A DNA stretch of 20,000 nt, taken from the IMG/VR virus record IMGVR_UViG_3300037067_004188, one strand, 5' to 3'. Origin of the DNA: an uncultured virus (IMG/VR IMGVR_UViG_3300037067_004188) (Duplodnaviria; Heunggongvirae; Uroviricota; Caudoviricetes). The position numbers and the translations under genes were made by a program. The notes under the pieces were generated by a model that was given only the letters and a program-made list of their open reading frames with translations, was not told where the DNA came from and did not search any database. How positions within the stretch are numbered: the stretch's first letter is position 1; each line of letters starts with the position of its first letter. This document shows positions 397 through 14,755 of this stretch, in pieces.

Positions 397-909
397 ATGG
401 AAATCCTATGTGTTGATGGCATTAAAAGAGACTTTGATGAAACCAGAAATATCGGGTTCTACTGCGTAAACTGTAAAAAATATCACATCTATAAGCCACA
501 GGAGCATACTTGCGAATTGACCTATAAGACTCTTGCTACTGGAGGCAAAGATCGCTATGGGCATTATTTCAACTTTACCGGGCATGAGGGTCATGGGTGC
601 TTTTGGTGTGGCAAGAAGCTGAATAAGGCTAATAAACGGTATTGCAATCAGGAATGCTCCCATGAATATTTAAGGCATTTCTACTGGAGTGCGGCACGTT
701 ATTGGTGTTTGGAGCGTTATGGTAATAAATGTCAGGGATGCGGTTCTAAGGATGATCTTGAAGTTCACCATATTGACCCCGTGGGTAAGGATGGCTATGG
801 ATGGCATACCAAGAACCGTCCAGAGAATCTTATACCGTTATGTGTAAAGTGTCATGGTGAGACCAGAAGGAAAGTAGAATATAAGCCAGAACAATTGGCT
901 TTATTCTAA
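397..909 (+). CDS. HNH endonuclease with N-terminal Zn-binding motifs
   Basis: CQGCG...LEVHHIDP...NRPENLIPLCVKCH is an HNH signature; extra CxxC and YCxxxC motifs upstream; ends in QLALF. Confidence 0.9.
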   Translation: MEILCVDGIKRDFDETRNIGFYCVNCKKYHIYKPQEHTCELTYKTLATGGKDRYGHYFNFTGHEGHGCFWCGKKLNKANKRYCNQECSHEYLRHFYWSAARYWCLERYGNKCQGCGSKDDLEVHHIDPVGKDGYGWHTKNRPENLIPLCVKCHGETRRKVEYKPEQLALF

Positions 910-921
910 AAGGAGATTGAA

Positions 922-1353
922 ATGTCACTAGAAAAGATTTGCGTTAGTTTAGAGATGGCGGAAAGGTTGCATGAAGCGGGAATCATGATTGAATCGGTAT
1001 TTAGTTGGGTAAAAATATCATGGGATACTGGTTGTATGGAAAACTTTGAATTAATGTCGTGTAATGATCTTATTCCATACCAACTAGAAGAAGGATATAA
1101 AATAGAATCTTATCCAGCACCGGCTGCTGAGGAGATTGAATTGCCATCCCATATAACTACCTATCAATGCGGTTGTGAGGATTGTAAGGGGCAATATCAA
1201 TGCTTTAATATCATTATACGGCATACTACGACAAATCCAAAGATGTCTGAGGCTAGAGCAGAAATGTTGCTCTGGCTAACAGAGAACGGATATTTGAAAG
1301 GAGATAGGAATGAACCAAAATCACATACCAAAGAAAGCGAAAAAAGAATATAA
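922..1353 (+). CDS. Hypothetical phage protein
   Basis: AAGGAG RBS; 143-aa ORF in operon context. Confidence 0.75.
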   Translation: MSLEKICVSLEMAERLHEAGIMIESVFSWVKISWDTGCMENFELMSCNDLIPYQLEEGYKIESYPAPAAEEIELPSHITTYQCGCEDCKGQYQCFNIIIRHTTTNPKMSEARAEMLLWLTENGYLKGDRNEPKSHTKESEKRI

Positions 1354-2601: not shown

Positions 2602-4071
2602 TCACCATAACTCAGGCTGATACACCGTTGACGCTATACGTCTCTCTGCCATCTTCACGTAGTCGGCATTGCTGTCTATCAGAACGTAATGCCTGCCCAT
2701 TGCCTTTGCCTGAACTGCCGTACTTCCCGATCCCCCGAATGGATCCAATATTACTCCTACATGATAAGTCGGATTTTCACAATCACAAGTCGTCAATCCA
2801 TTATTAACGTATTCGTAAGAATCAATATAGGGTGTGCTATTTTGTCCTATTGATGATTTCTTTGAACCACCGCCAGCACAAACTTTATCCCCACACCCAT
2901 AAATTTTCTCTCTTGGTAAACCACAGGTATCGCATATCTGAAAGGGAACACTGGTATCAATTACCCTTTCGGCTAAATCAGTACAGAATACTGCGAAGTG
3001 ACTATCATGTAATCCCCTGGTGGAAATAGACCACACTGCTCTGCAATTTCGCATAGGATTATTAGTATTTCTGACTTTCTCTGCATACCTTCGTTGTTTC
3101 TCTATGGAATATCCAGCGTGTATGCTAGTTGCCTTTTCGGAATTAAATTCATTATTTGCTCTGATAATACTGGAATCCTGTTGTGGCTCGAATTGCTGAT
3201 TGAAGTAATAATCTCTGCCTTGCCAATTAGACTTCTTCTTCTTACCTGTATTGCCACAAACTCTACATCCCGCTCCTTGACACTGACGACAATCATCCCA
3301 ATCCCAATCTATACCCTCTATGCCCTTTATACCCAATGGCTTTTTGGAAACCATCCGCTTCGTCTTGGTATTCTTCCACCAAAGAGTCTTACTATTTTTA
3401 CAGACAAAAAAGATAGGCTCATAATCTATGGTAAAACGGTCAGTAGCACTCTCAGGGCAGGCGTTAGGCTTCTGCCACACAATTTTATTGCGAACTATCC
3501 AGCCAGCGTCTATCATGGCTAATTCTAACCTTGCAGGTATGCCTATCAACGATTTGGCATTGACACCCATGACGTTCCTTGCCCTGCCACACTGTATGCC
3601 ATTCTTGCCATTATACTTGTTCTTATCAAATGTTTGGTTGCCCTTCGAGGCATGTGAGTCATCTATATTTATCCATAAACTGCCCGATGGCTTTAATACC
3701 CGCATACATTCTGTGAATACTTGCATGAGATGCGCTATATACAAATCTGGATGAGATTCTTGACCCAAGTTTCCTTTCCATGCCCCACATTTAGAACAAC
3801 TTTCTTGATTTTGACGGGATATGGAAAATATGTCTTTATTTCGATTATTTCCAGTATTAGCACCAAGACCACGATAACGAAGATTGTCTATATCAGCAAC
3901 TATGTTTTGCCATTCATGGCAGCAGGAATTATCCCCATCCCATACAATCGGCTCAATGCCATAGTCCCTTGCGAAGTAATATGGGGGCGAGGTGAATACG
4001 CTGTCAAAATAACCATCTGGAAAGCCACCTAAAATGTCCAATGCGTGTCCTTGATACACACTGTCTACCAT
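2602..4071 (-). CDS. Orphan beta-class amino-DNA methyltransferase (N4-mC/N6-mA family) with Cys-rich insertions
   Basis: N-terminal catalytic motif IV FTSPPYY, RVLKPSGSLWINI, HFAVF, and C-terminal SAM-binding motif ILDPFGGSGST. Confidence 0.93.
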   Translation of the reverse strand: MVDSVYQGHALDILGGFPDGYFDSVFTSPPYYFARDYGIEPIVWDGDNSCCHEWQNIVADIDNLRYRGLGANTGNNRNKDIFSISRQNQESCSKCGAWKGNLGQESHPDLYIAHLMQVFTECMRVLKPSGSLWINIDDSHASKGNQTFDKNKYNGKNGIQCGRARNVMGVNAKSLIGIPARLELAMIDAGWIVRNKIVWQKPNACPESATDRFTIDYEPIFFVCKNSKTLWWKNTKTKRMVSKKPLGIKGIEGIDWDWDDCRQCQGAGCRVCGNTGKKKKSNWQGRDYYFNQQFEPQQDSSIIRANNEFNSEKATSIHAGYSIEKQRRYAEKVRNTNNPMRNCRAVWSISTRGLHDSHFAVFCTDLAERVIDTSVPFQICDTCGLPREKIYGCGDKVCAGGGSKKSSIGQNSTPYIDSYEYVNNGLTTCDCENPTYHVGVILDPFGGSGSTAVQAKAMGRHYVLIDSNADYVKMAERRIASTVYQPELW

Positions 4072-4080
4072 GTTATCTCC

Positions 4081-4323
4081 TTAACGTCCTGTTATTAACT
4101 GCTTCTCACAAGCACCCAACGCTTCTCTGTTGGATTTTAACCATTTTAGATTCTGACGGTTGACCTCCTTGTGGGTCAAGTCAGAACTTACGTCAATAGT
4201 TCTTTCTACTAACTCGATATATTTGGCAATACCACCCTCTTTTCGTATTTCATGCAGAAAATTGATAAAACGAATAACCTCACAATAATTCTTCAAAACT
4301 TTTTCAATATCAAATTTTTCCAT
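4081..4323 (-). CDS. Hypothetical protein
   Basis: AGGAGG RBS; operon context. Confidence 0.7.
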   Translation of the reverse strand: MEKFDIEKVLKNYCEVIRFINFLHEIRKEGGIAKYIELVERTIDVSSDLTHKEVNRQNLKWLKSNREALGACEKQLITGR

Positions 4324-4341
4324 GATAACCTCCTGTTGACT

Positions 4342-5025
4342 TTATTGTTCATCTGGAATCAATAATTTGTCTATTCTATCACGATCTTGCTTGAAAATCA
4401 CTTCATAATCCTTTGACCAAGTCCCATCCTGTTTGGATATAAACGTACCATTCTTCCAACGTGATTCTAAATCTGCCCAATTTACACCTTTCTGATGTAA
4501 CATCTCGTGTATATCAGGAGTCTGCTTATTCTTCATCTGTTTCGCAGAATAATAAACTCTTGCTAACATTTGTAAAGAATTTCGTATCCAATCCGTCTGC
4601 CTCCAGATAAAATAATTGCATACCTCCTCCCTGGGTATATTAAATACCCTAGAATCAAAATATGCACGCTTGCCAAATTTCTCGGTAAATGACACTGAAC
4701 ATACTGAACTGGAAATGGACACCATCTTCTGAATATTATAATCAAACCATGCGTCAGTATTGAACTTCTCATAATCAATTATCAAAATACTGATCTCATC
4801 CGATTGAATATAGGCACATTTAGACCCCTGGACTTCTTTCATTACCTCCAAAGAGGCAAAGTGCATACAATCATTCAGGTTTTTATCAAATGGCTTTTCA
4901 CAGCCCCTAGTCAATGTATGAAACGCCTTGCCATCCAATCGTAGTATAACTGGCGTTCTTCGCATTAAGGACGACTGCGACCTGATCTCATAATTATCCT
5001 TCATCCTGTCCGATAATGATACCAT
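4342..5025 (-). CDS. tRNA(His) guanylyltransferase Thg1-like protein (3'-5' nucleotidyltransferase)
   Basis: Motifs RLDGKAFH, YIQSDEIS, FDSR, YFIWRQxDxxRNS. AAGGAGG RBS at ~5037-5043 puts the start at ATG 5025 (or GTG 5031), not 5103. Confidence 0.93.
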   Translation of the reverse strand: MVSLSDRMKDNYEIRSQSSLMRRTPVILRLDGKAFHTLTRGCEKPFDKNLNDCMHFASLEVMKEVQGSKCAYIQSDEISILIIDYEKFNTDAWFDYNIQKMVSISSSVCSVSFTEKFGKRAYFDSRVFNIPREEVCNYFIWRQTDWIRNSLQMLARVYYSAKQMKNKQTPDIHEMLHQKGVNWADLESRWKNGTFISKQDGTWSKDYEVIFKQDRDRIDKLLIPDEQ

Positions 5026-5045
5026 TTTCACTCTAACCTCCTTTA

Positions 5046-5258
5046 TTAACAAATAACACTGCCATTCTTTTTTATGATCTCTAAGTCCTTTGGCGGTATC
5101 CAATCATACCGACCATCATCGGTCTTGATAATATACCACCCCACAGGCGCATTTAAGGTGCATAATATCAGATTATCGGAAGGTTTTACCTCCCAAAACT
5201 TCTTAATATCACTCCAATTATTACCAGTATAAAGTAAATAGTCTACCATTTTTGCCAT
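5046..5258 (-). CDS. Hypothetical phage protein
   Basis: AAGGA RBS; YTGNN...VGWYIIKTDDG; operon context. Confidence 0.7.
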   Translation of the reverse strand: MAKMVDYLLYTGNNWSDIKKFWEVKPSDNLILCTLNAPVGWYIIKTDDGRYDWIPPKDLEIIKKNGSVIC

Positions 5259-5270
5259 GATATTCCTTTG

Positions 5271-5298
5271 TTGACTTTATCAACAACTGTGGTATAAT
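5271..5298 (+). promoter_or_regulatory. Sigma70-type promoter of wHTH cassette A
   Basis: TTGACT-N16-TATAAT with TGTG extended -10; the inverted repeat ttgttga/tcaacaa (5268-5286) overlaps the -35. Confidence 0.75.
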
Positions 5299-5304
5299 AT
5301 ATCC

Positions 5305-5414
5305 GAGACATAAAGCTAATGTCTCACCTCAACTAATTGTATGGTGACTGGGTAGGGATAACCTCCGATACGAGAATCCAGTTGCCATACTTCCTTATCT
5401 CGTAAAGGAGACCT
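5305..5414 (+). ncRNA. Structured 5' leader A (candidate cis-regulatory RNA)
   Basis: Hairpin gagacat/atgtctc with loop aaagcta; long stem 5339-5351/5378-5390; loop ctcc-ga-tacgaga complementary to tctcgta-aa-ggag (SD). Same layout recurs at 10663-10809. Confidence 0.6.
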
Positions 5415-5723
5415 ATGAAACAGATATACTATAAAACCCCTTCACACCTCATTCATACCGAAGAATATCAAAAATTATCTATACCATCTAAACTACTACT
5501 AAACCACAGCCTGCAATTCTATTATAAAAGCACATTTACATATCCATACTCTACCATTATGAAAGAAACTGGATTCTGCAAATCTGTAACCAAAGACTCA
5601 ATTACTGAACTACTCAAAGAAAAATATTGGTTTCTCGTCTCGGCGGGATCCAGAGGAATCTCTGCTGTATATCGCCATAACCGAGCACTTTTAGAACCTA
5701 ATTATGACCAAATACCGTTCTAA
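5415..5723 (+). CDS. Small winged helix-turn-helix DNA-binding protein (paralogue A)
   Basis: YQKLSIPSKLLL...PYSTIMKETGFCKSVTKDSITELLKEKYW...GSRGISAVYRHN; clearly aligns with 10810..11151. Confidence 0.8.
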   Translation: MKQIYYKTPSHLIHTEEYQKLSIPSKLLLNHSLQFYYKSTFTYPYSTIMKETGFCKSVTKDSITELLKEKYWFLVSAGSRGISAVYRHNRALLEPNYDQIPF

Positions 5724-5744
5724 TTTTAGAAAAATACTATGCCC

Positions 5745-5903
5745 AAAATAACCCTATATGTAGGGTAATCTAATATAATGATATGCATAATGCCAAAAAA
5801 TAACCCTGTATGTAGGGTTATGATACTTTTTGACCCTTTTTCTATATCACGTAAAACCTTGAAAACAAACACTCTATAACCCCATAACCCTATATGTAGG
5901 GTA
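5745..5903. repeat. Three iteron/operator-like palindromes, ACCCT-N6-AGGGT
   Basis: aaaataaccctatatgtagggtaa (5745), aaaataaccctgtatgtagggtta (5797), ataaccctatatgtagggta (5884). Confidence 0.85.
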
Positions 5904-5978
5904 TACTATATACCCCACAACGCCTTGCGATACTTATTGTCCCATCCTTTCTCCATCTTTAACCTCCTTAAAATAAAC

Positions 5979-6149
5979 CTATTGAGGAAAATCTTTACTT
6001 TTTTCCCTTGTCCAACCCTTGTCCACCTTCTCAAGATACTCGTCTATAAGCCTACGAACCAACTCGCCTATACTCTTACCCGTTTCCTTGCTTATCTCAC
6101 GCAACCTCTTTATATCACGCTCTGGTATGTATACCTGCGTCCTGTGCAT
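5979..6149 (-). CDS. Ribbon-helix-helix (CopG/Arc-like) DNA-binding protein
   Basis: MHRTQVYIPERDIKRLREISKETGKSIGELVRRLIDEYL has the RHH strand-helix-G-S-helix pattern. Confidence 0.85.
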   Translation of the reverse strand: MHRTQVYIPERDIKRLREISKETGKSIGELVRRLIDEYLEKVDKGWTREKSKDFPQ

Positions 6150-6161
6150 CAAATTTATCAC

Positions 6162-6587
6162 CTACTTATTATTAACTAAATCTTCCGAAATGCCTAACGA
6201 CTCATTAAAAATATCAAGATTACCCAAATACTTCTCATATTCCCTCTGCGTCTCCTCTATAAGATGTCGGGTTATCTCATGAGCCTCTACAATACGAGAC
6301 TTATCAAGAAATATGTCCAATAAATCAGAATGAAAATCAATACTTTTTTCTATCCATGTGTATTGTCGAAGATACAACCTGAGCAGTTCAGCCCTTTTCC
6401 ACCCATGAACTAATCTAATACATAAGGTATCACAGGTAAAGTATAAAACTATATCCGAATACTTAGTTATACCATAACCAAATCCAGCATTAGTATTCCT
6501 GATTAGCTGATTACCCAACTTGACCAGATCACACCCAAAACTACTCGATAGGAATATGCGCTTTTCATCATCTGTTAGCTGTTCCAT
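6162..6587 (-). CDS. Hypothetical protein
   Basis: GGAGGTG RBS and a promoter immediately upstream. Confidence 0.75.
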   Translation of the reverse strand: MEQLTDDEKRIFLSSSFGCDLVKLGNQLIRNTNAGFGYGITKYSDIVLYFTCDTLCIRLVHGWKRAELLRLYLRQYTWIEKSIDFHSDLLDIFLDKSRIVEAHEITRHLIEETQREYEKYLGNLDIFNESLGISEDLVNNK

Positions 6588-6605
6588 AATATCACCTCCA
6601 TAATA

Positions 6606-6635
6606 ATTATACCACTATCCAATGTATATTGTCAA
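6606..6635 (-). promoter_or_regulatory. Leftward sigma70-type promoter
   Basis: Minus strand TTGACA-N18-TATAAT with TG extension, followed by the GGAGGTG RBS of the 6587 gene. Confidence 0.75.
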
Positions 6636-6813
6636 GCGACTTCTTTGTTGCCAACCTGTAATATGATAGCCTAATTTCTCATTTTTTATGCGGAGGTGTT
6701 CATTAATTACAATCACAACAAGGCGGTGGCATGGGGGTCTGCCCCTCCCGTGTGGAATGTGTGTATGCATAGTCGTGTGCATGTGCGAATCCTTATATGT
6801 AAGGTAGGAATTC

Positions 6814-6893
6814 AGGCATAGGCAAGGCAAGTCTGGTCATATTTCTATCTATGGGCAGGCATAAGTCAACATATTTAAGGCACAAAACAGGCA
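6814..6893. repeat. Cluster of short AGGCA direct repeats in the non-coding divergent region
   Basis: AGGCA at 6814, 6820, 6825, 6857, 6878 and 6889. Confidence 0.55.
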
Positions 6894-6998
6894 TAAACAC
6901 TAATATCCATGCTTATTTGCTCTGCTCTGCATAACTATCATTATGTGGCATTGCGTTATCCTGTCCGCTTCTGGCTCTCTCAGGCTGAAAATAAATAC

Positions 6999-7027
6999 TT
7001 GACAAAAACTTAATATGGGTTTATACT
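6999..7027 (+). promoter_or_regulatory. Strong rightward (early-type) promoter
   Basis: TTGACA-N17-TATACT preceded by an A/T-rich UP-like tract. Confidence 0.85.
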
Positions 7028-7104
7028 GGTTAATAGTGCAAGGGAGCAGACACGGACAAGCTGGATCAGTAGACACACTCACTCACACAGAAGGAGATAA
7101 GGGA

Positions 7105-7287
7105 ATGAATAGCATGTATGATTATCAAGGTTATGAGGCTTTATTAGTGTGGTTAATGAGTATAGGGATAAATGACTGGTTAGAAATAGTATCTCTCATA
7201 GGAGGAGAGGTAGAAGTAGCGGAGTCATGTTTCAGATTGAAAATAAGCGGGTGCAATTCCCGCTCTCACAACAGGTATACTTGCTAA
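7105..7287 (+). CDS. Small hypothetical protein
   Basis: AAGGAG RBS at ~7091 supports ATG 7105 rather than 7015, which lies inside the promoter. Confidence 0.55.
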   Translation: MNSMYDYQGYEALLVWLMSIGINDWLEIVSLIGGEVEVAESCFRLKISGCNSRSHNRYTC

Positions 7288-7302
7288 TAAGGAGATTTAA
7301 TC

Positions 7303-7485
7303 ATGATATTAATAATGGTTCTATTAGTGATAGTTCCGGTGTTTTTAAATGCTTTTGGTAATAGACGACATGATAGGCTTATAAGAGTCTTGCGTCATGA
7401 GTGTATCGAGTCATGGCGTACCTCTCACAAGTTTGGTTACAAGATTTATGAGAGTTATAACTTGTCAGTAATCTATACCAGATAA
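7303..7485 (+). CDS. Small membrane-anchored protein
   Basis: AAGGAG RBS; hydrophobic N-terminus MILIMVLLVIVPVFL. Confidence 0.65.
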   Translation: MILIMVLLVIVPVFLNAFGNRRHDRLIRVLRHECIESWRTSHKFGYKIYESYNLSVIYTR

Positions 7486-7497
7486 GGAGTTTACGAC

Positions 7498-7668
7498 ATG
7501 GAATTAAAAACAAAATGGGTTTGTCCGGGTTGTAAGAAAAGGAATGTTTTAATCTCGTCTCTTGATAAGTTGGGAATCCCAACGGTCAAGAGCGGGTCAA
7601 AGTGTATTTGTGGAGTGGATCGTTATTCAGACAGATATTATCAGCTTAAATTAAAGTCAGCGAAGTAG
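7498..7668 (+). CDS. Small Zn-ribbon-like protein (56 aa)
   Basis: AAGGAG RBS; MELKTKWVCPGCKKRN...KCICG; absent from the ORF track. Confidence 0.7.
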   Translation: MELKTKWVCPGCKKRNVLISSLDKLGIPTVKSGSKCICGVDRYSDRYYQLKLKSAK

Positions 7669-7731
7669 TAATTAGGGTTGAATCTCTACCATGTCTATCA
7701 AAATAGTAGAGATTGATTAAGGGGGTTTATC

Positions 7732-7968
7732 ATGTATATATCGAAGTCACTTAGGGACGCATTTAGCGAAAAGATAGATGCTATTAATGAATTGATGAGT
7801 CATACAGTAATGAAAATAGTAATGAAGATAGAAAATAATCCAGAAAACAGCGATCAGTTTCGTATTGCTCTAGCTGGTGGTGTGTCTGAATGGATCAGTA
7901 GATCAGAGTTAGAGGACAGGACAGACAATATTTTGTTAGCATTGAGAAATGGGACAATCGAGTTATAA
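7732..7968 (+). CDS. Hypothetical protein
   Basis: GGGGG RBS; operon context. Confidence 0.7.
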   Translation: MYISKSLRDAFSEKIDAINELMSHTVMKIVMKIENNPENSDQFRIALAGGVSEWISRSELEDRTDNILLALRNGTIEL

Positions 7969-8012
7969 CAATCATAGTGCTGGCTATCACGTTAAACTGG
8001 CTGGAGGTAATC

Positions 8013-8207
8013 ATGGCAAAAGTAAAGTATTTATCAGTCAAACATCCAGAGGCAATAAAGTTGCACGATTGCCCATCATTTAGTGCGACAGGAAGCATTA
8101 AGGGCATGAAAGATAAGTTTTATGGTAGAGATGCCCTTCTGGTAAGGTCAGGGAGTTACATTTATAATGTCAGTGGTTGTCCTGAGTTATACGAATTAGC
8201 ACATTAG
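8013..8207 (+). CDS. Small hypothetical phage protein
   Basis: GGAGGT RBS supports ATG 8013; contains TGSIKGMK..FYG..ALLVRSGSYIYNV. Confidence 0.75.
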   Translation: MAKVKYLSVKHPEAIKLHDCPSFSATGSIKGMKDKFYGRDALLVRSGSYIYNVSGCPELYELAH

Positions 8208-8250
8208 TTCTAATATCCTGAGCAAGATGTAAAAAGGCTTAGGGGATAAA

Positions 8251-8487
8251 ATGATCAAAGCATCTGAACTTAGAAAAAACATTGATTTCAAAGTGTTGGC
8301 AAGAAAAGACGGTCAGTTACTTATGGATAACTATAAAGATGAAGAAGCGCAGTTATGGCAGATCAACAGGAAAAGATCGACTGGTGTTCTTGAATATGGG
8401 AATACATCTTATGAGTTTATCAGACATGCCCTAAAAGAAGATTTTGAGTTTTTTGGCGTTCTTGATATGAGACCTTTAAGGGCATAG
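8251..8487 (+). CDS. Hypothetical protein
   Basis: AGGGGA RBS; operon context. Confidence 0.7.
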   Translation: MIKASELRKNIDFKVLARKDGQLLMDNYKDEEAQLWQINRKRSTGVLEYGNTSYEFIRHALKEDFEFFGVLDMRPLRA

Positions 8488-8569
8488 TGTGACGGCGCAG
8501 TAATGCGCCTGTGCGGTATAGGCAATAACGCCCTAGTCCGACTGTAAACACAAACAAGGAGTTAAGACA

Positions 8570-8863
8570 ATGGGAAACACAAAGCTAAATCAAGTTAGTA
8601 TTGGGAATTATGGCAATTACTCAAGTGACAATTACGGTTCAAGTCGTTACGTCACAATCGGCAGTCTAACGTTATATTTTTCATATAAGACGGTGATTGC
8701 ATTTGAGAATATAAGCGGTTTAACTATATGCCAAAATGACTGGGGAACTACGACAGGCAAGCACTTAAACTCAATAAGTACAGACAAATCAAAGCGTATT
8801 CCCTATGCACAGTTTAAGGAATTGCTAGACAAGGTGTTAGAGATTCACGGCTTAGCCATATAA
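8570..8863 (+). CDS. Hypothetical phage protein (YFSYxTxIA...WxxTTGKHLN type)
   Basis: AAGGAG RBS; the motif resembles small uncharacterised phage early-region proteins as recalled, not searched. Confidence 0.75.
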   Translation: MGNTKLNQVSIGNYGNYSSDNYGSSRYVTIGSLTLYFSYKTVIAFENISGLTICQNDWGTTTGKHLNSISTDKSKRIPYAQFKELLDKVLEIHGLAI

Positions 8864-8915
8864 GACGAAACCCGCTCCGGCGGGTCGGCTGTTAATTGAC
8901 AGTCTTGATAAGTCT
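8863..8915 (+). ncRNA. Type II hammerhead ribozyme, U3-A8 core variant; predicted cleavage after GUC at C8886
   Basis: agac-GAAA-cccgc(uccg)gcggg-UC-ggcuguu(aauu)gacaguc-UUGAUAA-gucu: stems I, II and III all form, and the core matches apart from the compensatory C3U/G8A change. Confidence 0.88.
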
Positions 8916-8934
8916 GAATCAACGGAGGTGTAAC

Positions 8935-9165
8935 ATGATAGTTAAAGATTTGCAGAATTTACTTGAAAACAAGCCTGATGATATGGTTATCAAATTACTT
9001 TCATGGACTAACGATCATGATCCAGAATATAAATTTATTGATCCTGACATTTCAACACAGCTTGTATCTTTAGACATGGACACTGTAACGTCAGATAAAG
9101 ACCACGCTGATCCAGAATTTGACGATTTGTATTCAGATGAGCAAGAAGTTTTATTAATAGCATAA
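8935..9165 (+). CDS. Small acidic hypothetical protein
   Basis: GGAGGTG RBS supports ATG 8935; MIVKDLQNLLENKPDDM start and a D/E-rich C-terminus. Confidence 0.75.
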   Translation: MIVKDLQNLLENKPDDMVIKLLSWTNDHDPEYKFIDPDISTQLVSLDMDTVTSDKDHADPEFDDLYSDEQEVLLIA

Positions 9166-9177
9166 CGGAGGTGTGCA

Positions 9178-9477
9178 ATGTTTGTTTTATGGCTAAATGC
9201 AAGCGGGCATAAGGCAAAGGATATACCAGAGCTACGGCAGACCTTATTAAGTCTGAGCAGTCAGATATTTGAGAAGTGCGTAAAATCCTACATAACCGTT
9301 GAGCAGTCTGATGGTTACGTTGGTGAGCATATCTTTGACACTAAAGCTGTTCGGAACATGGTGCATACTATTTCAAAGATAGATTCAGACATGGCGACTA
9401 TTGCGGAATGTGCTGAGTTATGCAATCAGTTTGCGATACTGAGAGCAAACAATAAGGAGGAATCCAGGCAATGTTAG
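9178..9477 (+). CDS. Hypothetical protein
   Basis: GGAGGTG RBS. Confidence 0.7.
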   Translation: MFVLWLNASGHKAKDIPELRQTLLSLSSQIFEKCVKSYITVEQSDGYVGEHIFDTKAVRNMVHTISKIDSDMATIAECAELCNQFAILRANNKEESRQC

Positions 9478-9818
9478 ACAAAAAAAATTTCATTAAAAAG
9501 GTAAATGATTTGGGTTCCCTTATAGGTTTTTCGGTTGAGGACACATCAATAGAAAACTACATAAATTCTGCTATTCTAAGAAATAAAGGTACAAGACAGG
9601 AGATTCACGTTTTTAACGGTCATTATGGCAAGGAAAACAAAATCTCTATACAGGGTGAATTATCAGGAATAAAGATAAATGAGTTACTACCGTGTATCCA
9701 CATAGCCGAAACAAAAACAGCAGAGCAGATCAAGAAAGACATTGATCGTCATTTAATGCCAAGCTACATGCTTATATTAAAGAAGGCTTTAGCGGATCAG
9801 CGAAAGGTTAGCGAATGA
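9471..9818 (+). CDS. Hypothetical protein
   Basis: AAGGAGG RBS; coupled to the upstream gene. Confidence 0.7.
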   Translation: MLDKKNFIKKVNDLGSLIGFSVEDTSIENYINSAILRNKGTRQEIHVFNGHYGKENKISIQGELSGIKINELLPCIHIAETKTAEQIKKDIDRHLMPSYMLILKKALADQRKVSE

Positions 9819-10096
9819 ACGGACTAAATGAATCACTAAGAGCATGTCAAACTAATCCTTCTGAATCTAACCTTGACGTTCTTGATGGGTTATTAAAGTC
9901 AGGGCATGGGTTACGGATAACGTATAAACCAGAGCAAATGAAATATCTGGACAAGCGAAACAGTGATCGCAATTCGATTCGTAATTATTCAGGGATTAGC
10001 AAGACAAAGAGCGTCTTTTGGCTGTGTTATTGTACAGGAATGTTTTTAGAATATCGGATGATGGTTGATATTCAAGCGATAAAGGATATAAAATAA
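9815..10096 (+). CDS. Hypothetical protein
   Basis: ATGA overlap with the upstream stop. Confidence 0.65.
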   Translation: MNGLNESLRACQTNPSESNLDVLDGLLKSGHGLRITYKPEQMKYLDKRNSDRNSIRNYSGISKTKSVFWLCYCTGMFLEYRMMVDIQAIKDIK

Positions 10097-10106
10097 CAGA
10101 GGTGCA

Positions 10107-10334
10107 ATGATGACCGAAGAGACGAAACGTTTAATCAAAGAGAATGTTGAGGTATTCAAGCTAGAGGAGTTTATAAGTGTGTGCGCGTGGTGTGGCAAAT
10201 GGCGTTCAGGTGATAATTGGTTCAATGCGCCTATTCCAAAAGGTAAGAGATCGCATGGGATATGTCCAGATTGTTATAAGAAATTCAATGCTGGCGTTCC
10301 TTATGATGAGGTGACAAAAACATGGCTAAAGTAA
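10107..10334 (+). CDS. Small Zn-binding protein
   Basis: GAGGTG RBS; VCAWCGK...SHGICPDC motif. Confidence 0.75.
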   Translation: MMTEETKRLIKENVEVFKLEEFISVCAWCGKWRSGDNWFNAPIPKGKRSHGICPDCYKKFNAGVPYDEVTKTWLK

Positions 10335-10525
10335 TTTTCAATGTTGGAGATCAAGTTTATGTTGTTTCTATTGGTATGACGGCGATCGTACTGTCAAGGG
10401 CAGGCGATCAATACAGGATTAAGCGTGCAGATGGTAAGTTTGACTATGTGATGTCTAACGGTCTGGTGAGGTGTAAAAATGAATCACAGACACAGAAAAT
10501 CAACGAGGAGGCAGCGCAGGCGTAA
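10322..10525 (+). CDS. Small SH3/KOW-like beta-barrel protein
   Basis: GAGGTG RBS; FNVGDQVYV...AIVL...YRIKRADG pattern. Confidence 0.6.
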   Translation: MAKVIFNVGDQVYVVSIGMTAIVLSRAGDQYRIKRADGKFDYVMSNGLVRCKNESQTQKINEEAAQA

Positions 10526-10625
10526 GGTCAGGCGTTCCCTTCCCCTTATGCTTGCATGGGTAACAATCTTTATAGAGTGCTGGAAGCGTAATAACAGGCA
10601 GAGATGCCGAAAGGTCAGAAAATAG
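10479..10625 (+). CDS. Arginine-rich small peptide (48 aa)
   Basis: GAGGTG RBS just upstream; MNHRHRKSTRRQRRRKVRRSLPLMLAWVTIFIECWKRNNRQRCRKVRK; ends just before the cassette B promoter. Confidence 0.5.
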   Translation: MNHRHRKSTRRQRRRKVRRSLPLMLAWVTIFIECWKRNNRQRCRKVRK

Positions 10626-10628
10626 CCC

Positions 10629-10658
10629 TTGACGTGGGCGTTCTCTTTGTGGTAATAT
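10629..10658 (+). promoter_or_regulatory. Sigma70-type promoter of wHTH cassette B
   Basis: TTGACG-N18-TAATAT with the same TGTGG extended -10 as cassette A. Confidence 0.6.
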
Positions 10659-10662
10659 GGAT

Positions 10663-10809
10663 GTGTCAGCGGTTGAGCATTTAGCTAGTGCTGAACCATC
10701 AAGCTGGCACAACCATTTGTGTGATGTTATGTGGGATAATCTCCCCCAGAGATAACTCCGATTGGTAGACATAGCATCACACATCCTTACTACCAAAGAG
10801 GAGAACGCC
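10663..10809 (+). ncRNA. Structured 5' leader B (candidate cis-regulatory RNA)
   Basis: Hairpin with loop ttagcta; 15-bp stem 10718-10732/10769-10783; loop ctcc-ga-ttggtag complementary to ctaccaa-aga-ggag (SD). Confidence 0.6.
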
Positions 10810-11151
10810 ATGAGACCACCAAAAAAGCACGTCAAGCAATTTCTAAGACTTTCACACGAATTAGTCAAATCAGAACGTTACAACAATTTATCACATCCAG
10901 CTATAATCATTCTAAATTATAGTATGATTTTCTATTACGACAATGATCCTTTTCATCCTTTTAGCTTGCCATATTCAGAAATAAAAAGCGTTTTGCATAT
11001 CGGCAAGACAACAATAGCGAAAGCAATCAAACAATTAATAGATGGCAAATACTGGATTTTAATTAATAAAGGTGGGCGAAATAGGTCAGCTATTTATCGC
11101 CATAACCATTCATTATTGAGCGTTTATGAAGAATCCACAAGTCCTGTTTAG
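10810..11151 (+). CDS. Small winged helix-turn-helix DNA-binding protein (paralogue B)
   Basis: GAGGAG RBS supports ATG 10810; YNNLSHPAIIILNYS..FYY...PYSEIKSVLHIGKTTIAKAIKQLIDGKYW...GGRNRSAIYRHN. Confidence 0.8.
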   Translation: MRPPKKHVKQFLRLSHELVKSERYNNLSHPAIIILNYSMIFYYDNDPFHPFSLPYSEIKSVLHIGKTTIAKAIKQLIDGKYWILINKGGRNRSAIYRHNHSLLSVYEESTSPV

Positions 11152-11229
11152 GACTAATCAGAGACGTAATAAGTCCTGTTCTGGACTAAAGAATGACTGT
11201 TTTTGGGGTCATTAGTCCTGTTCTGGACT
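11140..11229. repeat. Three iteron/operator-like palindromes, AGTCC-N6-GGACT
   Basis: agtcctgtttaggact (11140), agtcctgttctggact (11172 and 11214). Confidence 0.85.
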
Positions 11230-11435
11230 GTTCCTATGTACTAGACTATTTCCTATACTTTAAGGTATGTTTGATTAACTATAATTCTTTTGTAAAGCCA
11301 CAAAAGAATCAAAAAGGCTGTCTTCTCTACGTCTAAAGCCAAGCAGGATAGCTTATAGCGGGGGCAATATCTATCAATTAGGTGAGCCTGTGGCTATTTG
11401 ACCTCTTTAGACTGCGAGAATGAGTTAAAGAGCAA

Positions 11436-11527: not shown

Positions 11528-12199
11528 TCAGAACGCACCCTCTGCCTTCAAAGAGTCCCACACAGCCATTATCTCATCTTGGAAGCGTTCCCTATTATAT
11601 CCCACAGAGCCAAATTTGATAACTACCTGTTTCATTATGGCATCAGGCGAGTTTCCCAATTCCAGATTGACGTTGAGATTCTTATTGATATTTTCAACCG
11701 TGCTTCTTTGCTGATATTGGTTTATTATTTCAAGTAGCTTGATAAGTGGTTGATAAGAAGTTTCGCCATGCTTCCAGAGTCCTGCGATAATGTCAGGATA
11801 GGCATTTTCGATCACTACTTTGGTACATGCGATTAATGAGTCCGTGCAAGTAGGATTTTTCTTAAAATTTGCTACTGCGTCTCTTTGTACTCCCGCCCTT
11901 TTAGCTATCTCGGTATCGGTAGTTCTTTTAAAAATATTGCGGTCAACATTGAATTTCATAATCTCAAGATGGGCTAGGAGTATTTTTCTCTGTACTGCGG
12001 TCAATCCAGCCGTCACTTGTAGTTCTCTAATATCATTCTGGATTCTCTTTGCAATTATGTCTTTTGGTATTTGTTTCTTGGCAAAAGGTTTTAGATTGGA
12101 TTGCTCAGGAATAAATTGAGATTGGTACTCAACTGCACTCATAGTTTTATCAATAATAGTGTTAGTTGGGTATTCGTCATTTACGTCATTTTTGGTCAT
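11528..12199 (-). CDS. HTH protein, phBC6A51-like; probable terminase small subunit
   Basis: LTAVQRKILLAHLE...TTDTEIAKRAGVQRDAVANFKKNP HTH followed by helices and a NINKNLNVN strand. AGGAGG RBS and promoter position support ATG 12199. Confidence 0.55.
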   Translation of the reverse strand: MTKNDVNDEYPTNTIIDKTMSAVEYQSQFIPEQSNLKPFAKKQIPKDIIAKRIQNDIRELQVTAGLTAVQRKILLAHLEIMKFNVDRNIFKRTTDTEIAKRAGVQRDAVANFKKNPTCTDSLIACTKVVIENAYPDIIAGLWKHGETSYQPLIKLLEIINQYQQRSTVENINKNLNVNLELGNSPDAIMKQVVIKFGSVGYNRERFQDEIMAVWDSLKAEGAF

Positions 12200-12218
12200 A
12201 TATAATCCTCCTACAACG

Positions 12219-12247
12219 ATTATAAGAAAGAATCTGAAAAAAGTCAA
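12219..12247 (-). promoter_or_regulatory. Leftward promoter for the TerS-like gene
   Basis: Minus strand TTGACT-N17-TATAAT. Confidence 0.8.
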
Positions 12248-12256
12248 ATAATTTCC

Positions 12257-12285
12257 TTGACATTGCCTAAAATATAGTTTATAAT
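12257..12285 (+). promoter_or_regulatory. Rightward consensus promoter, back-to-back with the leftward one
   Basis: Perfect TTGACA-N17-TATAAT. Confidence 0.9.
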
Positions 12286-12323: not shown

Positions 12324-12638
12324 GTGACGCTTTTGAAGGCAAACGAAATAAAGGATTTGAAGCCCCTGAGTTCCAAAGACGTAATGAGAATCTATAAGAT
12401 TTCTTACGTGTCTCTCTGGAAGTGGGTTAAATCTGGGTGTCCACGACACGAACTGCATAAAGGCAGACGAATTTTGTGGATATATTACCAGAAAGAGATT
12501 AATGAGTGGCTGGAGAAGGACAAGTCTAGGTATCGTCAGGCTGTTGCGGAGGCAGGCATAGAAGCAGGCAAGCGTAATCGGCGTAGGCGTGATAAGTATT
12601 TTATCAATTATCCAGACCCGCCAGAAGAAGAAAAGTAG
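12324..12638 (+). CDS. Excisionase/MerR-like HTH DNA-binding protein
   Basis: LSSKDVMRIYKISYVSLWKWVKSGCP...YYQKEINEWL. Confidence 0.75.
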   Translation: MTLLKANEIKDLKPLSSKDVMRIYKISYVSLWKWVKSGCPRHELHKGRRILWIYYQKEINEWLEKDKSRYRQAVAEAGIEAGKRNRRRRDKYFINYPDPPEEEK

Positions 12639-13710: not shown

Positions 13711-13971
13711 ATGCCAGTTCACATTTTAAGTGAGGATTATACGGAACGCTGTGTCTCGGCGGCTAACCTTTACGTTGAAAGTTACAACAAGAATATGAAA
13801 AACGAGATATTACAAGGTATATGCTTGCCACTGGATAAGGCGTTCAAACAGGATAGGTTCAAGTCTATGACAGGTCAGGAATGGGTTGATGAATATGATG
13901 GTATGATACGTTGGGATCAGATCAACATGATCGCCAAAAGGATAGAGGAAATAGGTGTCATTCATGAGTGA
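13711..13971 (+). CDS. Hypothetical protein
   Basis: GGGGG RBS; coupled ORF. Confidence 0.7.
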   Translation: MPVHILSEDYTERCVSAANLYVESYNKNMKNEILQGICLPLDKAFKQDRFKSMTGQEWVDEYDGMIRWDQINMIAKRIEEIGVIHE

Positions 13972-14755
13972 ATATCACGGCATGGCTGAAAACGTGCTAA
14001 CCGTTAGCAAGATCAATACCTATCTGTCTTGTAGTGCGCAATTTTGGTTTCAATATATCGAGAAGGTTAAGGCTTATAGCAGGTCTAGTCTGCTTATAGG
14101 TAGCGCCTTCCATAGTGCAGAGGCTACCAATGACGCACAGAAGATTGAATCTGACGAGGATATGCCTGTGGATGCTGTTTGTGACGTATTTAACGATCAG
14201 TTTAACGAGGGCGCTCATGAGACGCTCTTTATGCAGGATGAGGATAAGGGCAAACTGAAAGATGATGGCTATGGGCTTATCAACGTCTATAACAAGATCG
14301 TGACGCCTGACATACATCCAGTGGCAGTTGAGACTAGGTTCGAGTTAAAGCTATCCAATACGGATATGGTCTTTGCTGGGAAGATGGACGTTATCACGAA
14401 GGATAACAAAATCATAGAGCGTAAGACAAAGAGAGAAAAACCTTCAAGTGTTGAGAATCAACATAAGTTACAGTTGACCGCCTATAACGCTGGCTATCAG
14501 GTAACGCACAAAGAGAAGCCGAAGGAATCACGTTTGGACTACTGCGTCATGACAAAAACTCCACAATGCCTGTCTTACGTGGTGGACGTTACTGATAGCG
14601 ACACCAAGTATCTCGTCAGCATGATTAATCTGGTCAAGGAATCGTTGGATAAGGGGGTTTTTATTCCCAATCGTAATTCAATGATGTGTTCTCGTAGATA
14701 TTGTATGTATTCAGATTTATGCGAAACCAAATTCGGTGGCGCAGTAAAGGAGTGA
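13964..14755 (+). CDS. PD-(D/E)XK exonuclease, RecB/Cas4-like, with a probable Fe-S cluster
   Basis: SKINTYLSC, GSAFH, VETRF...GKMDVITKDNKIIERKT, QLTAY and C-terminal CSRRYCMYSDLC. Confidence 0.9.
   Translation: MSEYHGMAENVLTVSKINTYLSCSAQFWFQYIEKVKAYSRSSLLIGSAFHSAEATNDAQKIESDEDMPVDAVCDVFNDQFNEGAHETLFMQDEDKGKLKDDGYGLINVYNKIVTPDIHPVAVETRFELKLSNTDMVFAGKMDVITKDNKIIERKTKREKPSSVENQHKLQLTAYNAGYQVTHKEKPKESRLDYCVMTKTPQCLSYVVDVTDSDTKYLVSMINLVKESLDKGVFIPNRNSMMCSRRYCMYSDLCETKFGGAVKE

What the first reader, a model, noticed from the sequence alone, without database searches (positions are those of the whole stretch)
5271..11229. Twice-repeated cassette: promoter + RBS-sequestering leader RNA + small wHTH gene + three cassette-specific palindromes
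Seen: two units (5271-5903 and 10629-11229) share order and architecture but have diverged in sequence. Each has a TGTGG extended -10 promoter, a two-hairpin leader, a paralogous 102 or 113 aa winged-HTH, and then three palindromes with a 6-bp spacer: ACCCT-N6-AGGGT for A and AGTCC-N6-GGACT for B. Cassette A sits antisense within an otherwise minus-strand gene run (6587, 6149, then 5258 onward), as if inserted. Established: iterons after an N-terminal wHTH are typical of lambda O-type initiators, but those have a C-terminal helicase-recruiting domain, which is missing here. Inference: self-contained protein plus cognate-site modules with orthogonal specificities. They could be mini origins, genome-end or packaging markers, incompatibility modules, or a small selfish element. 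I do not recognise this arrangement as a named system.
Basis: partly seen in the sequence, partly recalled or inferred. Interest (0 to 1): 0.85.

Follow-up and report, generated by a model that had tools for sequence, protein, structure and literature searches.

The report
Portable RepA-like protein-plus-binding-site cassettes
An uncultured phage carries two diverged copies of a small portable cassette, in which a tightly translation-controlled DNA-binding protein resembling the front half of a plasmid replication initiator sits next to three sites it probably binds; this looks like the specificity part of a replicon living on its own.

Summary
Both cassettes have an extended -10 promoter, a structured leader, a paralogous 102 or 113 aa gene (40% identity) and three cassette-specific 16-bp palindromes. 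The palindromes occur nowhere else in the 20 kb window.

Comparative data add three points:
- The cassette recurs in four distinct cassettes on three distinct metagenome sequences, as a discrete unit of about 620 bp with unrelated flanks. One contig has a tandem second cassette whose gene is truncated. The palindrome half-site differs with the protein type: CCCT, GTCC or GTTC.
- By profile and by predicted fold, the protein is closest to the N-terminal DNA-binding and dimerisation domain of RepA_N plasmid initiators (pSK41 and pTZ2162). It has no C-terminal domain, and 27 of its 31 detectable relatives are also at most 150 aa.
- The leader's large hairpin loop pairs with the pre-SD and SD sequence, and this pairing shows compensatory changes. 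No Rfam family matches.

The layout is colinear with the first two thirds of a RepA_N replicon: regulated leader, N-terminal domain, Rep boxes. My best reading is a free-standing, portable "DNA-binding domain plus iteron" module that builds a replication-related nucleoprotein site. DNA binding and function are both untested. I class it as a new variant of a known kind.

The parts
5271..5298 (+). Cassette A promoter: TTGACT, 16-nt spacer, TATAAT, with TGn extended -10. The -35 lies in a 31-nt repeat shared with 4315-4345, so it probably belongs to the flank.
   Evidence: family D6. The L003/L004 cassette homology starts only at the extended -10.
5305..5325 (+). Leader hairpin P1 of A: 7-bp stem and loop AAAGCUA. 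The loop motif WWAGCUA is shared with winB and L002. P1 is absent in L003 and L004.
5339..5390 (+). Leader hairpin P2 of A: a 13-bp stem (5339-5351 with 5378-5390) enclosing a 26-nt loop that holds GGGAUAACCUCC.
   Evidence: 13 pairs, 6 with changes on both sides, 98.1% of cells paired in 4 sequences.
5363..5410 (+). Loop-to-SD helix of A: 5363-5375 (CUCC..UACGAGA) pairs with 5398-5410 (UCUCGUA..GGAG). It covers the SD, 5 nt before the ATG.
   Evidence: 11 pairs, 5 with changes on both sides, 97.7% paired; the best duplex partner of the SD segment is this site.
5415..5723 (+). Gene A, 102 aa, a stand-alone winged helix like the RepA_N N-terminal domain.
5751..5902 (.). Three A boxes, ACCCT-N6-AGGGT, at 5751-5766, 5803-5818 and 5887-5902 (spacings 52 and 84). 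A conserved block CTAAAACCTTGAAAA lies between boxes 2 and 3.
10629..10658 (+). Cassette B promoter: TTGACG, 18-nt spacer, TAATAT, with TG.
10664..10809 (+). Leader of B: composite P1 (10664-10709), a 15-bp P2 stem (10718-10783), and a loop-to-SD helix in which 10756-10768 (CUCC..UUGGUAG) pairs with 10790-10803 (CUACCAA...GGAG).
10810..11151 (+). Gene B, 113 aa, paralogue of A. It is predicted to be a winged helix and a homodimer.
11140..11229 (.). Three B boxes, AGTCC-N6-GGACT, at 11140-11155, 11172-11187 and 11214-11229 (spacings 32 and 42).
11223..11275 (.). AT-rich non-coding block directly after box 3 of B. It is 83-90% identical to L002, more conserved than the coding region (about 70%) or the boxes.

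Best explanation
Each cassette is a free-standing specificity module of a RepA_N-type replicon.

1. An extended -10 promoter makes an mRNA with a leader of 110-150 nt.
2. In that leader, the loop of a long hairpin (CUCCGA plus 7-9 variable nt) pairs with the sequence just before the Shine-Dalgarno and with the Shine-Dalgarno itself. Little protein should therefore be made. The pairing is shown by covariation; its effect on translation is inferred.
3. The product is a protein of about 100 aa that corresponds to the N-terminal DNA-binding and dimerisation domain of RepA_N initiators and has no C-terminal effector domain. This is shown by profile and fold. The dimer is predicted only.
4. I infer that one dimer sits on each of the three 16-bp semi-palindromic boxes directly 3' of the gene, with two 5-bp half-sites 11 bp apart. 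In the window's cassettes the boxes are spaced at near-integral helical turns, so three dimers would lie on one DNA face. Together with a conserved AT-rich flank they would form a cis-acting nucleoprotein complex.
5. The two cassettes use different half-sites and should not cross-talk.

My most likely reading of the function is replication-related. The complex would be an origin-like or iteron site that marks DNA for the phage's own replication or recombination machinery, or that controls or excludes replication by iteron binding. The missing effector function would be supplied in trans or not needed. The unit is portable between phage genomes.
For: **Protein**
- The family profile's best match among solved structures is the RepA N-terminal domain: 4pta at E 7.6e-5 over profile positions 4-95, then 4pt7, 4pql and 5kbj.
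- The AF2 model has pLDDT 86. Its first 7 Foldseek matches are the same RepA entries, TM 0.53-0.57.
- Pfam gives weak hits to RepA_N, HTH_36, Rep3_N, Phage_rep_O and DnaD_N across family members.
- The Atlas nearest clusters carry RepA_N.
- Homodimer prediction: score 0.85, best of 3 controls 0.01. That mark was reached by 20 of 30 proteins solved as pairs of one chain and by 1 of 23 solved as single chains. Runs agree in at least 92% of contacts, and the partner's pLDDT is at least 87. RepA N-terminal dimers are solved, so this may reflect likeness to them.

**Sites**
- There are three boxes per cassette, and they are unique in the window.
- Number and order are the same in all 5 complete cassettes. 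Spacings are 52/84, 50/86, 32/42 and 31/41.
- The half-site changes with the protein clade.
- RepA_N iterons are described as semi-palindromic repeats with inverted sub-repeats (PMC7145576, passages).

**Layout**
- In pSK41 the 120-aa N-terminal domain binds four Rep boxes located just after its coding region. Rep translation is controlled through an RBS-sequestering leader structure (PMC5703833, passages).
- The RepA_N domain and its origin behave as one swappable unit in PLE satellites and in pPR9 (PMC8263062 and PMC5703833, passages).

**Leader**
- 97.9% of cells paired, 11 of 24 pairs with changes on both sides, 0 of 500 shuffles as high, and at most 2 such pairs in the slid controls.
- the homologous site is the best duplex partner of the SD segment in 6 of 6 leaders.

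**Portability**.

**Conserved AT-rich block next to the boxes**.
Against: - No binding, replication or expression data exist; no RNA run was listed.
- The C-terminal domain, thought to recruit the replisome in RepA_N initiators, is absent. No helicase, primase, polymerase or loader was recognised in the 20 kb.
- The cumulative GC-skew minimum lies at the divergent promoters near 6600-6800, not at a cassette. Skew follows gene strand here, so this is weak evidence.
- Pfam RepA_N scores are below the curated cut-off (20 bits against 30). Fold TM of about 0.55 is moderate, and many winged-helix regulators also match.
- Only 6 cassettes from 4 distinct sequences could be compared, and only 3 site specificities. 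The 50/86 spacing in L003/L004 departs from whole turns by about a quarter turn.
- Two orthogonal origins in one phage have no obvious rationale.
- With linkers of 5-7 nt after a 13-16 bp stem, it is not clear that P2 and the loop-SD helix can fully coexist.
Confidence: 0.45

Rival explanations
1. The cassette is a transcriptional insulator or roadblock, or a regulator. The protein binds the three boxes at the 3' end of its own gene. There it blocks RNA polymerase coming from the convergent unit, or its own strong read-through. In cassette A this would make expression of the genes downstream in the leftward operon (5258 down to 2298) depend on the level of protein A.
For: - In 3 of 5 contexts the boxes face the 3' end of a convergent gene: window A, window B and L004.
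- Cassette A interrupts an operon driven from 6635-6606.
- Box 2 of A, with its A-run and T-run flanks, scores as a bidirectional terminator-like site.
- Many MarR/ArsR-type regulators appear among the fold matches.
Against: - The boxes are not at any promoter. The other boxes lack T-runs, and the B region has 0 terminator-like sites.
- In L002 and L003 the next unit is co-directional.
- A dedicated protein with a pseudoknot-controlled leader is an expensive substitute for a terminator.
- The closest relatives by sequence and fold are initiator domains, not regulators.
Confidence: 0.2
2. The cassette is an incompatibility or anti-parasite module. It would be a captured RepA_N domain plus iterons from a satellite, plasmid or rival phage. 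It blocks that element's origin by competitive binding (a dominant-negative N-terminal domain) and by titrating its initiator. Two cassettes would mean two targets.
For: - Phages are known to capture RepA_N domains from satellites as targeting modules (Odn, Gp5, coliphage homologues; PMC8263062 and PMC10448857, passages).
- In RepA_N replicons the iterons lie right after the N-terminal-domain coding region, so one recombination event would capture promoter, leader, N-terminal domain and boxes together (PMC5703833, passages).
- The cassettes sit at variable positions, and their GC skew is atypical for their strand.
Against: - No full-length relative that could be the target was found in 1.8 billion representatives, nor in plasmid, phage, viral or genome collections.
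- The family is a stable stand-alone lineage with its own stop codons.
- Known examples fuse the domain to a nuclease, and none is fused here.
Confidence: 0.17
3. The cassette is a DNA-positioning or packaging marker: a centromere-like site with its binding protein (as sopB-sopC or TubR-tubC), or a terminase recognition site like lambda cosB with its three R sites.
For: - Small winged-helix centromere binders appear low in the fold list: TubR 3m8e at rank 19 and the pNOB8 protein 4rs8 at rank 50.
- In L003 the cassette lies about 200 bp from the start of a terminase large subunit gene.
Against: - No ParA, ParM, TubZ or adjacent small terminase partner was recognised.
- Two different cassettes per genome and variable positions do not suit a unique packaging site.
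- The terminase-small-subunit hit of ORF 11528-12247 is weak (E 0.0019), and that ORF looks more like an HTH repressor.
Confidence: 0.08
4. The genes are decayed fragments of ordinary full-length initiator genes, or the pattern is chance.
For: L003 holds a second cassette whose gene stops after 42 codons.
Against: - The gene length of about 100-113 aa is conserved across 40-70% divergence.
- No C-terminal-domain ORF lies downstream.
- Compensatory changes maintain the leader.
- The boxes are far above chance.
Confidence: 0.03

Closest known systems
RepA_N theta replicons of Gram-positive plasmids (pSK41, pTZ2162) and the RepA/ori module of Vibrio PLE satellites
   Same: - The N-terminal winged-helix dimer domain is the best sequence-profile and fold match.
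- Semi-palindromic repeated boxes lie directly after the N-terminal-domain coding region.
- A regulated leader can hide the RBS.
- The domain and its sites evolve as one swappable unit (PMC5703833, PMC7145576, PMC8263062; passages read).
   Different: - There is no linker or C-terminal domain, and the gene ends before the boxes.
- There are three true 16-bp palindromes rather than four or more direct repeats.
- SD sequestration is built into the leader by a loop-SD helix, and no antisense RNA has been shown.
- Copies occur several to a phage genome.
- Pfam RepA_N is below its cut-off.
Lambda O / Rep_3 / HTH_36 initiator N-terminal domains
   Same: Winged-helix DNA-binding domains that bind iterons next to or inside their own gene. 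Some family members give weak Pfam hits.
   Different: The hits are below cut-offs and weaker than those to RepA_N structures. The C-terminal helicase-loader-binding part is absent.
IncI-alpha/IncB repZ/repA leader pseudoknot (recalled; only a search listing was seen)
   Same: A hairpin loop in a rep leader pairs with the sequence next to the rep RBS.
   Different: There the pseudoknot activates translation and is blocked by an antisense RNA. Here the helix covers the SD itself and should repress. The sequence and the protein family are unrelated.
Phage Odn-type origin-directed nucleases
   Same: A phage-borne RepA_N-like domain of about 100 aa (PMC8263062 and PMC10448857, passages).
   Different: Odn is fused to a T5orf172 nuclease and its target sites lie in a satellite. 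Here there is no nuclease fusion and the sites sit beside the gene.

Membership tests
RepA_N replication initiators (PF06970) | N-terminal RepA_N winged-helix domain | tested here: inconclusive
   Pfam gives 20 bits against a cut-off of 30. However, the family profile hits RepA N-terminal-domain structures at E 7.6e-5 over nearly its full length, and these are the top fold matches at TM about 0.55. This shows superfamily-level kinship, not curated membership.
RepA_N replication initiators (PF06970) | Linker plus host-specific C-terminal domain, giving a protein of about 300 aa | tested here: not met
   The proteins end at 102 and 113 aa, and no continuing ORF follows. Of 31 relatives, 27 are at most 150 aa. 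No longer relatives were found (weak evidence by that tool's own statement).
RepA_N replication initiators (PF06970) | Cognate repeated semi-palindromic boxes at or after the N-terminal-domain coding region | tested here: met
   Three boxes start within 0-30 bp of the stop codon in 5 of 5 complete cassettes.
RepA_N replication initiators (PF06970) | Supports replication from its origin | not testable with these tools
   This needs a replication assay.
pSK41-type antisense-RNA copy control | Counter-transcribed RNA complementary to the leader | tested here: inconclusive
   Only weak minus-strand promoter-like sites were found, and no RNA run was available. The SD-sequestering structure itself is present.
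Any Rfam family (leader RNA) | Match to a curated covariance model | tested here: not met
   Nothing credible was found: whole window at E up to 1, and leaders alone at E up to 10.
Lambda O-type initiators (PF04492) | Phage_rep_O N-terminal domain plus C-terminal P-binding domain | tested here: not met
   The window's two proteins give no hit. Relatives give only sub-threshold hits. There is no C-terminal domain.
Partition centromere-binding proteins (TubR, SopB/ParB) | Adjacent NTPase partner gene | tested here: not met
   No ParA, ParM or TubZ family hit was found among the window ORFs.

The most novel reading that the evidence does not exclude
The cassettes are a previously undescribed class of minimal mobile genetic unit in phages. 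Each is a free-living replicon specificity module: an initiator DNA-binding domain, its iterons and a new self-repressing leader pseudoknot. The modules multiply and move between genomes, and they give one phage several orthogonal origin-like sites. These sites would be used either as split-initiator origins that borrow a shared phage effector, or as incompatibility weapons against satellites and rival phages.
Probability: 0.25. Interest if true: 0.8.

Novelty: new variant of a known kind. Interest (0 to 1): 0.66.

Why it matters
If the reading holds, three things follow.

- The DNA-binding domain plus iteron part of a replicon can persist and spread as an independent unit of about 620 bp. So far it is known only as a swappable segment inside RepA_N genes.
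- It would give a simple natural system of orthogonal protein/site pairs.
- It would give a new cis-regulatory RNA fold, a loop-to-SD helix with clear covariation.

It would also offer a handle on how RepA_N-type domains act without their C-terminal domain, which is open even for the full-length initiators (PMC7145576 discussion, passage read). The family is so far seen only in uncultured phage-like contigs, so its wider importance is unknown.

Tried and rejected
**Searches for further loci**
- A 16-nt leader motif scan of viral contigs gave 20 loci. By their context all were chance matches.
- Protein-guided scans found no relative in:
  - viral contigs;
  - genome contigs;
  - cultured phages;
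  - plasmids.
- Two alignments were too diverse for the locus finder.
- No whole genome is held for this window.

**Sequencing runs**
- No RNA holder was listed, so promoter use, transcript ends and antisense RNA could not be examined.
- Laying two DNA runs showed no form lacking a cassette.

**Other tests**
- Terminator reading of the palindromes: only box 2 of A (and box 1 on the minus strand) has a T-run. None of the B boxes does, nor do the L002-L004 boxes.
- Flanking direct repeats as insertion scars: nothing consistent across cassettes.
- A two-sequence alignment of the B-type leaders was out of register, so it was not used for pair counts.
- GC skew as an origin marker is uninformative, because skew follows gene strand.
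- Cluster look-up gave no informative names.
- Earlier findings of this scan: none for this genome.

Full report
**What is there**

The window looks like part of an uncultured phage. It holds:
- an HNH endonuclease;
- a DNA methylase (2602-4071, minus strand);
- a Thg1-like gene (4342-5103, minus strand);
- an RHH repressor-like gene (5979-6161, minus strand);
- a Cas4/PD-(D/E)XK nuclease (13955-14755);
- many small ORFs without family.

A related contig carries a terminase large subunit. No whole genome is held.

Cassette A has:
- a promoter at 5271-5298 with TG upstream;
- a leader folding at -36.8 kcal/mol, z -3.9;
- gene 5415-5723, 102 aa;
- three ACCCT-N6-AGGGT palindromes at 5751, 5803 and 5887, the only three matches in 20 kb against 0.35 expected.

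Cassette B has:
- a promoter at 10629-10658;
- a leader folding at -52.3 kcal/mol, z -4.3;
- gene 10810-11151, 113 aa;
- three AGTCC-N6-GGACT palindromes at 11140, 11172 and 11214, again the only three matches against 0.32 expected.

The two proteins share 34 of 86 identities, E 2e-21. Cassette A lies antisense inside a leftward operon that starts at a consensus promoter at 6635-6606.

**The cassette is a conserved, portable unit**

One metagenome scan returned six loci.
- Two of them (L001, L006) are the window's own sequence.
- L004 and L005 are identical where they overlap.

That leaves three independent relatives: L002 (B-type, 71% protein identity) and L003 and L004/5 (A-type). All show the same order: extended -10 promoter, structured leader, gene of about 102-108 aa, then three palindromes.

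L003 and L004 are 88% identical only across the cassette (L003 1044-1664, L004 249-868). Their flanks are unrelated. The homology starts at the extended -10, not at a -35.

The RHH gene lies to the right of cassette A in the window but to the left of the cassette in L004/L005, in the same orientation. In L005 the stretch downstream of RHH has no cassette. The unit therefore sits at different places on a related backbone.

L003 carries a second cassette in tandem. Its leader is intact, but its gene stops after 42 codons.

The -35 of cassette A lies within a 31-nt repeat that also precedes another small minus-strand gene, at 4315-4345. It probably belongs to the flank and not to the cassette.

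On their coding strand the cassettes have neutral to negative GC skew (-0.29 for A, -0.08 for B). Other genes in the window have about +0.2 to +0.3.

**The protein**

Pfam and PHROGs give nothing above threshold. The only hit is RepA_N at 20 bits against a cut-off of 30, for B.

An exhaustive profile search of 1.84 billion representatives found 31 proteins at E up to 0.001, and 7 at E up to 1e-10. Of the 31:
- 27 are at most 150 aa;
- three, of 207-258 aa, each match in two stretches;
- one, of 1027 aa, is an SprB-repeat protein and probably spurious.

A search for longer relatives found none, which that tool itself calls weak evidence. Members give scattered sub-threshold hits to HTH_36, Rep3_N, Phage_rep_O, DnaD_N, RepA_N and MarR.

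A 21-sequence profile hits RepA N-terminal-domain structures best. The top hit is 4pta at E 7.6e-5, aligning profile positions 4-95 to residues 9-107. It is followed by 4pt7, 4pql and 5kbj. Unrelated Cullin winged helices hit at about 1e-3.

The AlphaFold model (pLDDT 86, pTM 0.75) is a winged helix. Its first seven Foldseek matches are those same RepA entries (TM 0.53-0.57, E 3e-4 to 4e-3). MarR/ArsR-type regulators come next, and TubR is lower in the list. The Atlas feature search also points to short RepA_N clusters.

A two-copy prediction scored 0.85, against 0.01 for the best of three controls. That mark was reached by 20 of 30 proteins solved as pairs of one chain and by 1 of 23 solved as single chains. 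Runs agree in at least 92% of contacts, and the partner's pLDDT is at least 87. The interface uses residues 6-17 and 29-40. RepA N-terminal dimers are solved, so this shows likeness rather than independent proof.

No relative was found in cultured phages, plasmids, IMG/VR contigs or GTDB genomes.

**The boxes**

Each box is a 16-bp near-palindrome whose 5-bp half-sites are centred 11 bp apart. That fits a dimeric winged helix contacting successive major grooves; this is inference.

| Cassette | Half-site core | Spacings (bp) |
|---|---|---|
| Window A | CCCT | 52 / 84 |
| L003, L004, L005 | CCCT | 50 / 86 |
| Window B | GTCC | 32 / 42 |
| L002 | GTTC | 31 / 41 |

- B and L002 are 70% identical as proteins and differ by one base in the half-site. 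The A-type is different altogether.
- The window's spacings are near whole helical turns (4.95, 8.0, 3.05 and 4.0 at 10.5 bp per turn).
- The 50/86 pair is off by about a quarter turn, so phasing is only suggestive.

The boxes are not general terminators. Only box 2 of A (and box 1 on the minus strand) has a T-run.

Other non-coding blocks are conserved besides the boxes:
- CTAAAACCTTGAAAA between A boxes 2 and 3;
- an AT-rich stretch at 11223-11267 directly after B box 3, which is 83-90% identical to L002. The coding region is about 70% identical.

This suggests a composite cis-acting locus rather than three operators.

**The leader**

Rfam has no match, either for the whole window or for the leaders alone at E up to 10.

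All six leaders contain a long hairpin, P2, of 13-16 bp. Its stem sequence differs completely between types, but it stays paired. Its loop holds GGGAUAAYCU(C/Y)C.

In all six leaders, a loop segment CUCC(G/A)A followed by 7-9 variable bases is complementary to the bases just before the SD and to GGAG of the SD. RNAduplex places the best upstream partner of the 24-nt SD segment at this homologous site in 6 of 6 leaders. In each leader, few of 300 shuffles of the upstream part pair with the SD segment at least as strongly:

| Leader | Shuffles at least as strong (of 300) |
|---|---|
| winA | 3 |
| L003_1 | 1 |
| L004 | 0 |
| L003_2 | 18 |
| winB | 48 |
| L002 | 0 |

I counted P2 plus this helix on the gap-free alignment of the four A-type leaders:
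- 97.9% of 96 cells are paired;
- 11 of 24 pairs have changes on both sides (6 in P2, 5 in the loop-SD helix);
- 0 of 500 shuffles reach any observed measure;
- partners slid by 1-3 columns give at most 2 such pairs and 34-46% pairing.

Four sequences are few and they are related. Even so, the heptamers differ at up to five positions with exact compensation.

The helix is a pseudoknot with respect to P2. Its 5' strand abuts the 3' strand of P2 (0-2 nt between them), as in H-type pseudoknots. The linker after P2 is only 5-7 nt for a 13-16 bp stem, however. I cannot say whether both helices form fully at once or whether they alternate.

In L002 the pseudoknot-free minimum-energy fold chooses the loop-SD helix over P2. 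I infer that translation is held low. What relieves the block is unknown. Candidates are a counter-transcript, kinetics during transcription, the protein itself, or temperature.

A first hairpin with the loop WWAGCUA is shared by winA, winB and L002 but is missing in L003/L004.

**Comparison with known systems**

I read passages of the following papers, not the whole texts.
- In pSK41 the 319-aa Rep has a 120-aa N-terminal RepA_N domain that binds four Rep boxes lying centrally in rep. The central part is a dispensable linker encoded by the origin DNA. An antisense RNA induces a stem-loop that hides the RBS. In pPR9 the roughly 500 bp encoding the N-terminal domain plus origin were swapped for a phage-like HTH_36 version (PMC5703833).
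- RepA_N iterons are described as semi-palindromic repeats. How RepA_N proteins initiate is stated to be unknown (PMC7145576).
- In PLE satellites the RepA_N domain and the origin covary and swap as a unit, while the C-terminal domain stays constant. Phage ICP1 captured such a domain in its Odn nuclease (PMC8263062). Similar captures are inferred in coliphages (PMC10448857).

The cassette is therefore colinear with the first two thirds of a RepA_N replicon and matches the known swappable unit. Here, though, that unit is free-standing: it has its own stop codon and occurs in several diverged copies per phage lineage.

My literature searches listed no description of a stand-alone form with adjacent boxes. 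That covers only the held library. The IncI-alpha repZ pseudoknot comparison is from recall; one search gave only a listing.

**Verdict**

The anatomy is confirmed and extended.
- Shown: paralogy, unit boundaries, box uniqueness and clade-specific half-sites, kinship to the RepA_N N-terminal domain, absence of a C-terminal domain, and covariation in the leader.
- Inferred: dimer binding to the boxes, low translation, and any role in replication.

I put 0.45 on a replication-related iteron or origin-like module. The rivals are:
- roadblock or regulator, 0.20;
- incompatibility or anti-parasite module, 0.17;
- partition or packaging marker, 0.08;
- decay or chance, 0.03.

It fails membership of RepA_N initiators on the C-terminal domain, but it most resembles how their specificity module works.

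Noticed in passing
window 4315-4345 and 5250-5280: A 31-nt direct repeat (81% identical) covers the start codon, SD and upstream sequence of two small minus-strand genes (4081-4323 and 5046-5258). It includes the TTGACT that serves as the -35 of cassette A (family D6).
   Followed up: partly
L003 1690-1950, with repeats at 1008 and 1967: A second, tandem cassette has an intact promoter and leader, a weakened SD (GGAAG), and a gene cut by a stop after 42 codons. I saw no palindromes after it. A 12-nt direct repeat (TTACCCACTGAT) flanks the cassette pair. Its chance expectation is about 0.1 by my own rough estimate, and no such repeat flanks the other cassettes.
   Followed up: partly
window 10986 (inside gene B): In run X2, one contig follows the window up to 10986 and then continues with different sequence. 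This may be a strain whose recognition-helix half and boxes are a different allele. Only 30 letters were shown (table 7).
   Followed up: no
window 11528-12285: A 239-aa minus-strand ORF has a weak Xre/HipB-like HTH (E 0.005) and a weak small-terminase PHROG hit (E 0.002). It sits beside back-to-back consensus promoters (12247-12219 on the minus strand, 12257-12285 on the plus strand), followed by an HTH_17/excisionase-like gene at 12324. This layout resembles a repressor/early-operon switch. Cassette B converges on it.
   Followed up: partly
window 4342-5103 (minus strand): A phage-borne Thg1-like tRNA-His guanylyltransferase (Pfam E 6e-26, PHROG 4717 E 8e-76) lies next to a 489-aa DNA methylase. 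Both sit in the variable stretch between RHH and the 97-aa gene, a stretch that L005 fills with an ASCH-domain gene instead.
   Followed up: no
window 906-962 and 1446-1502: A 57-nt direct repeat (84% identical) spans an SD and the first codons. One copy is at the start of ORF 922-1353; the other lies between ORFs, before 1575-2180 (family D1).
   Followed up: no
L002 2263-3024: A T5orf172/MUG113 (GIY-YIG-like) protein is encoded about 1.4 kb downstream of the B-type cassette. This is the nuclease domain that Odn-type proteins fuse to RepA_N domains, but it is not fused here.
   Followed up: no
window 5305-5325, 10675-10700; L002 about 360-385: The first leader hairpin has a conserved loop, WWAGCUA, that contains the self-complementary AGCU, on covarying stems. 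It could allow loop-loop contacts between transcripts. It is absent from the L003/L004 leaders.
   Followed up: no
window 5201-6000 and 10601-11200: The cassette genes have negative or neutral GC skew on their coding strand (-0.29 and -0.08). The other genes in the window have about +0.2 to +0.3 on theirs. This is consistent with a foreign origin for the cassettes.
   Followed up: no
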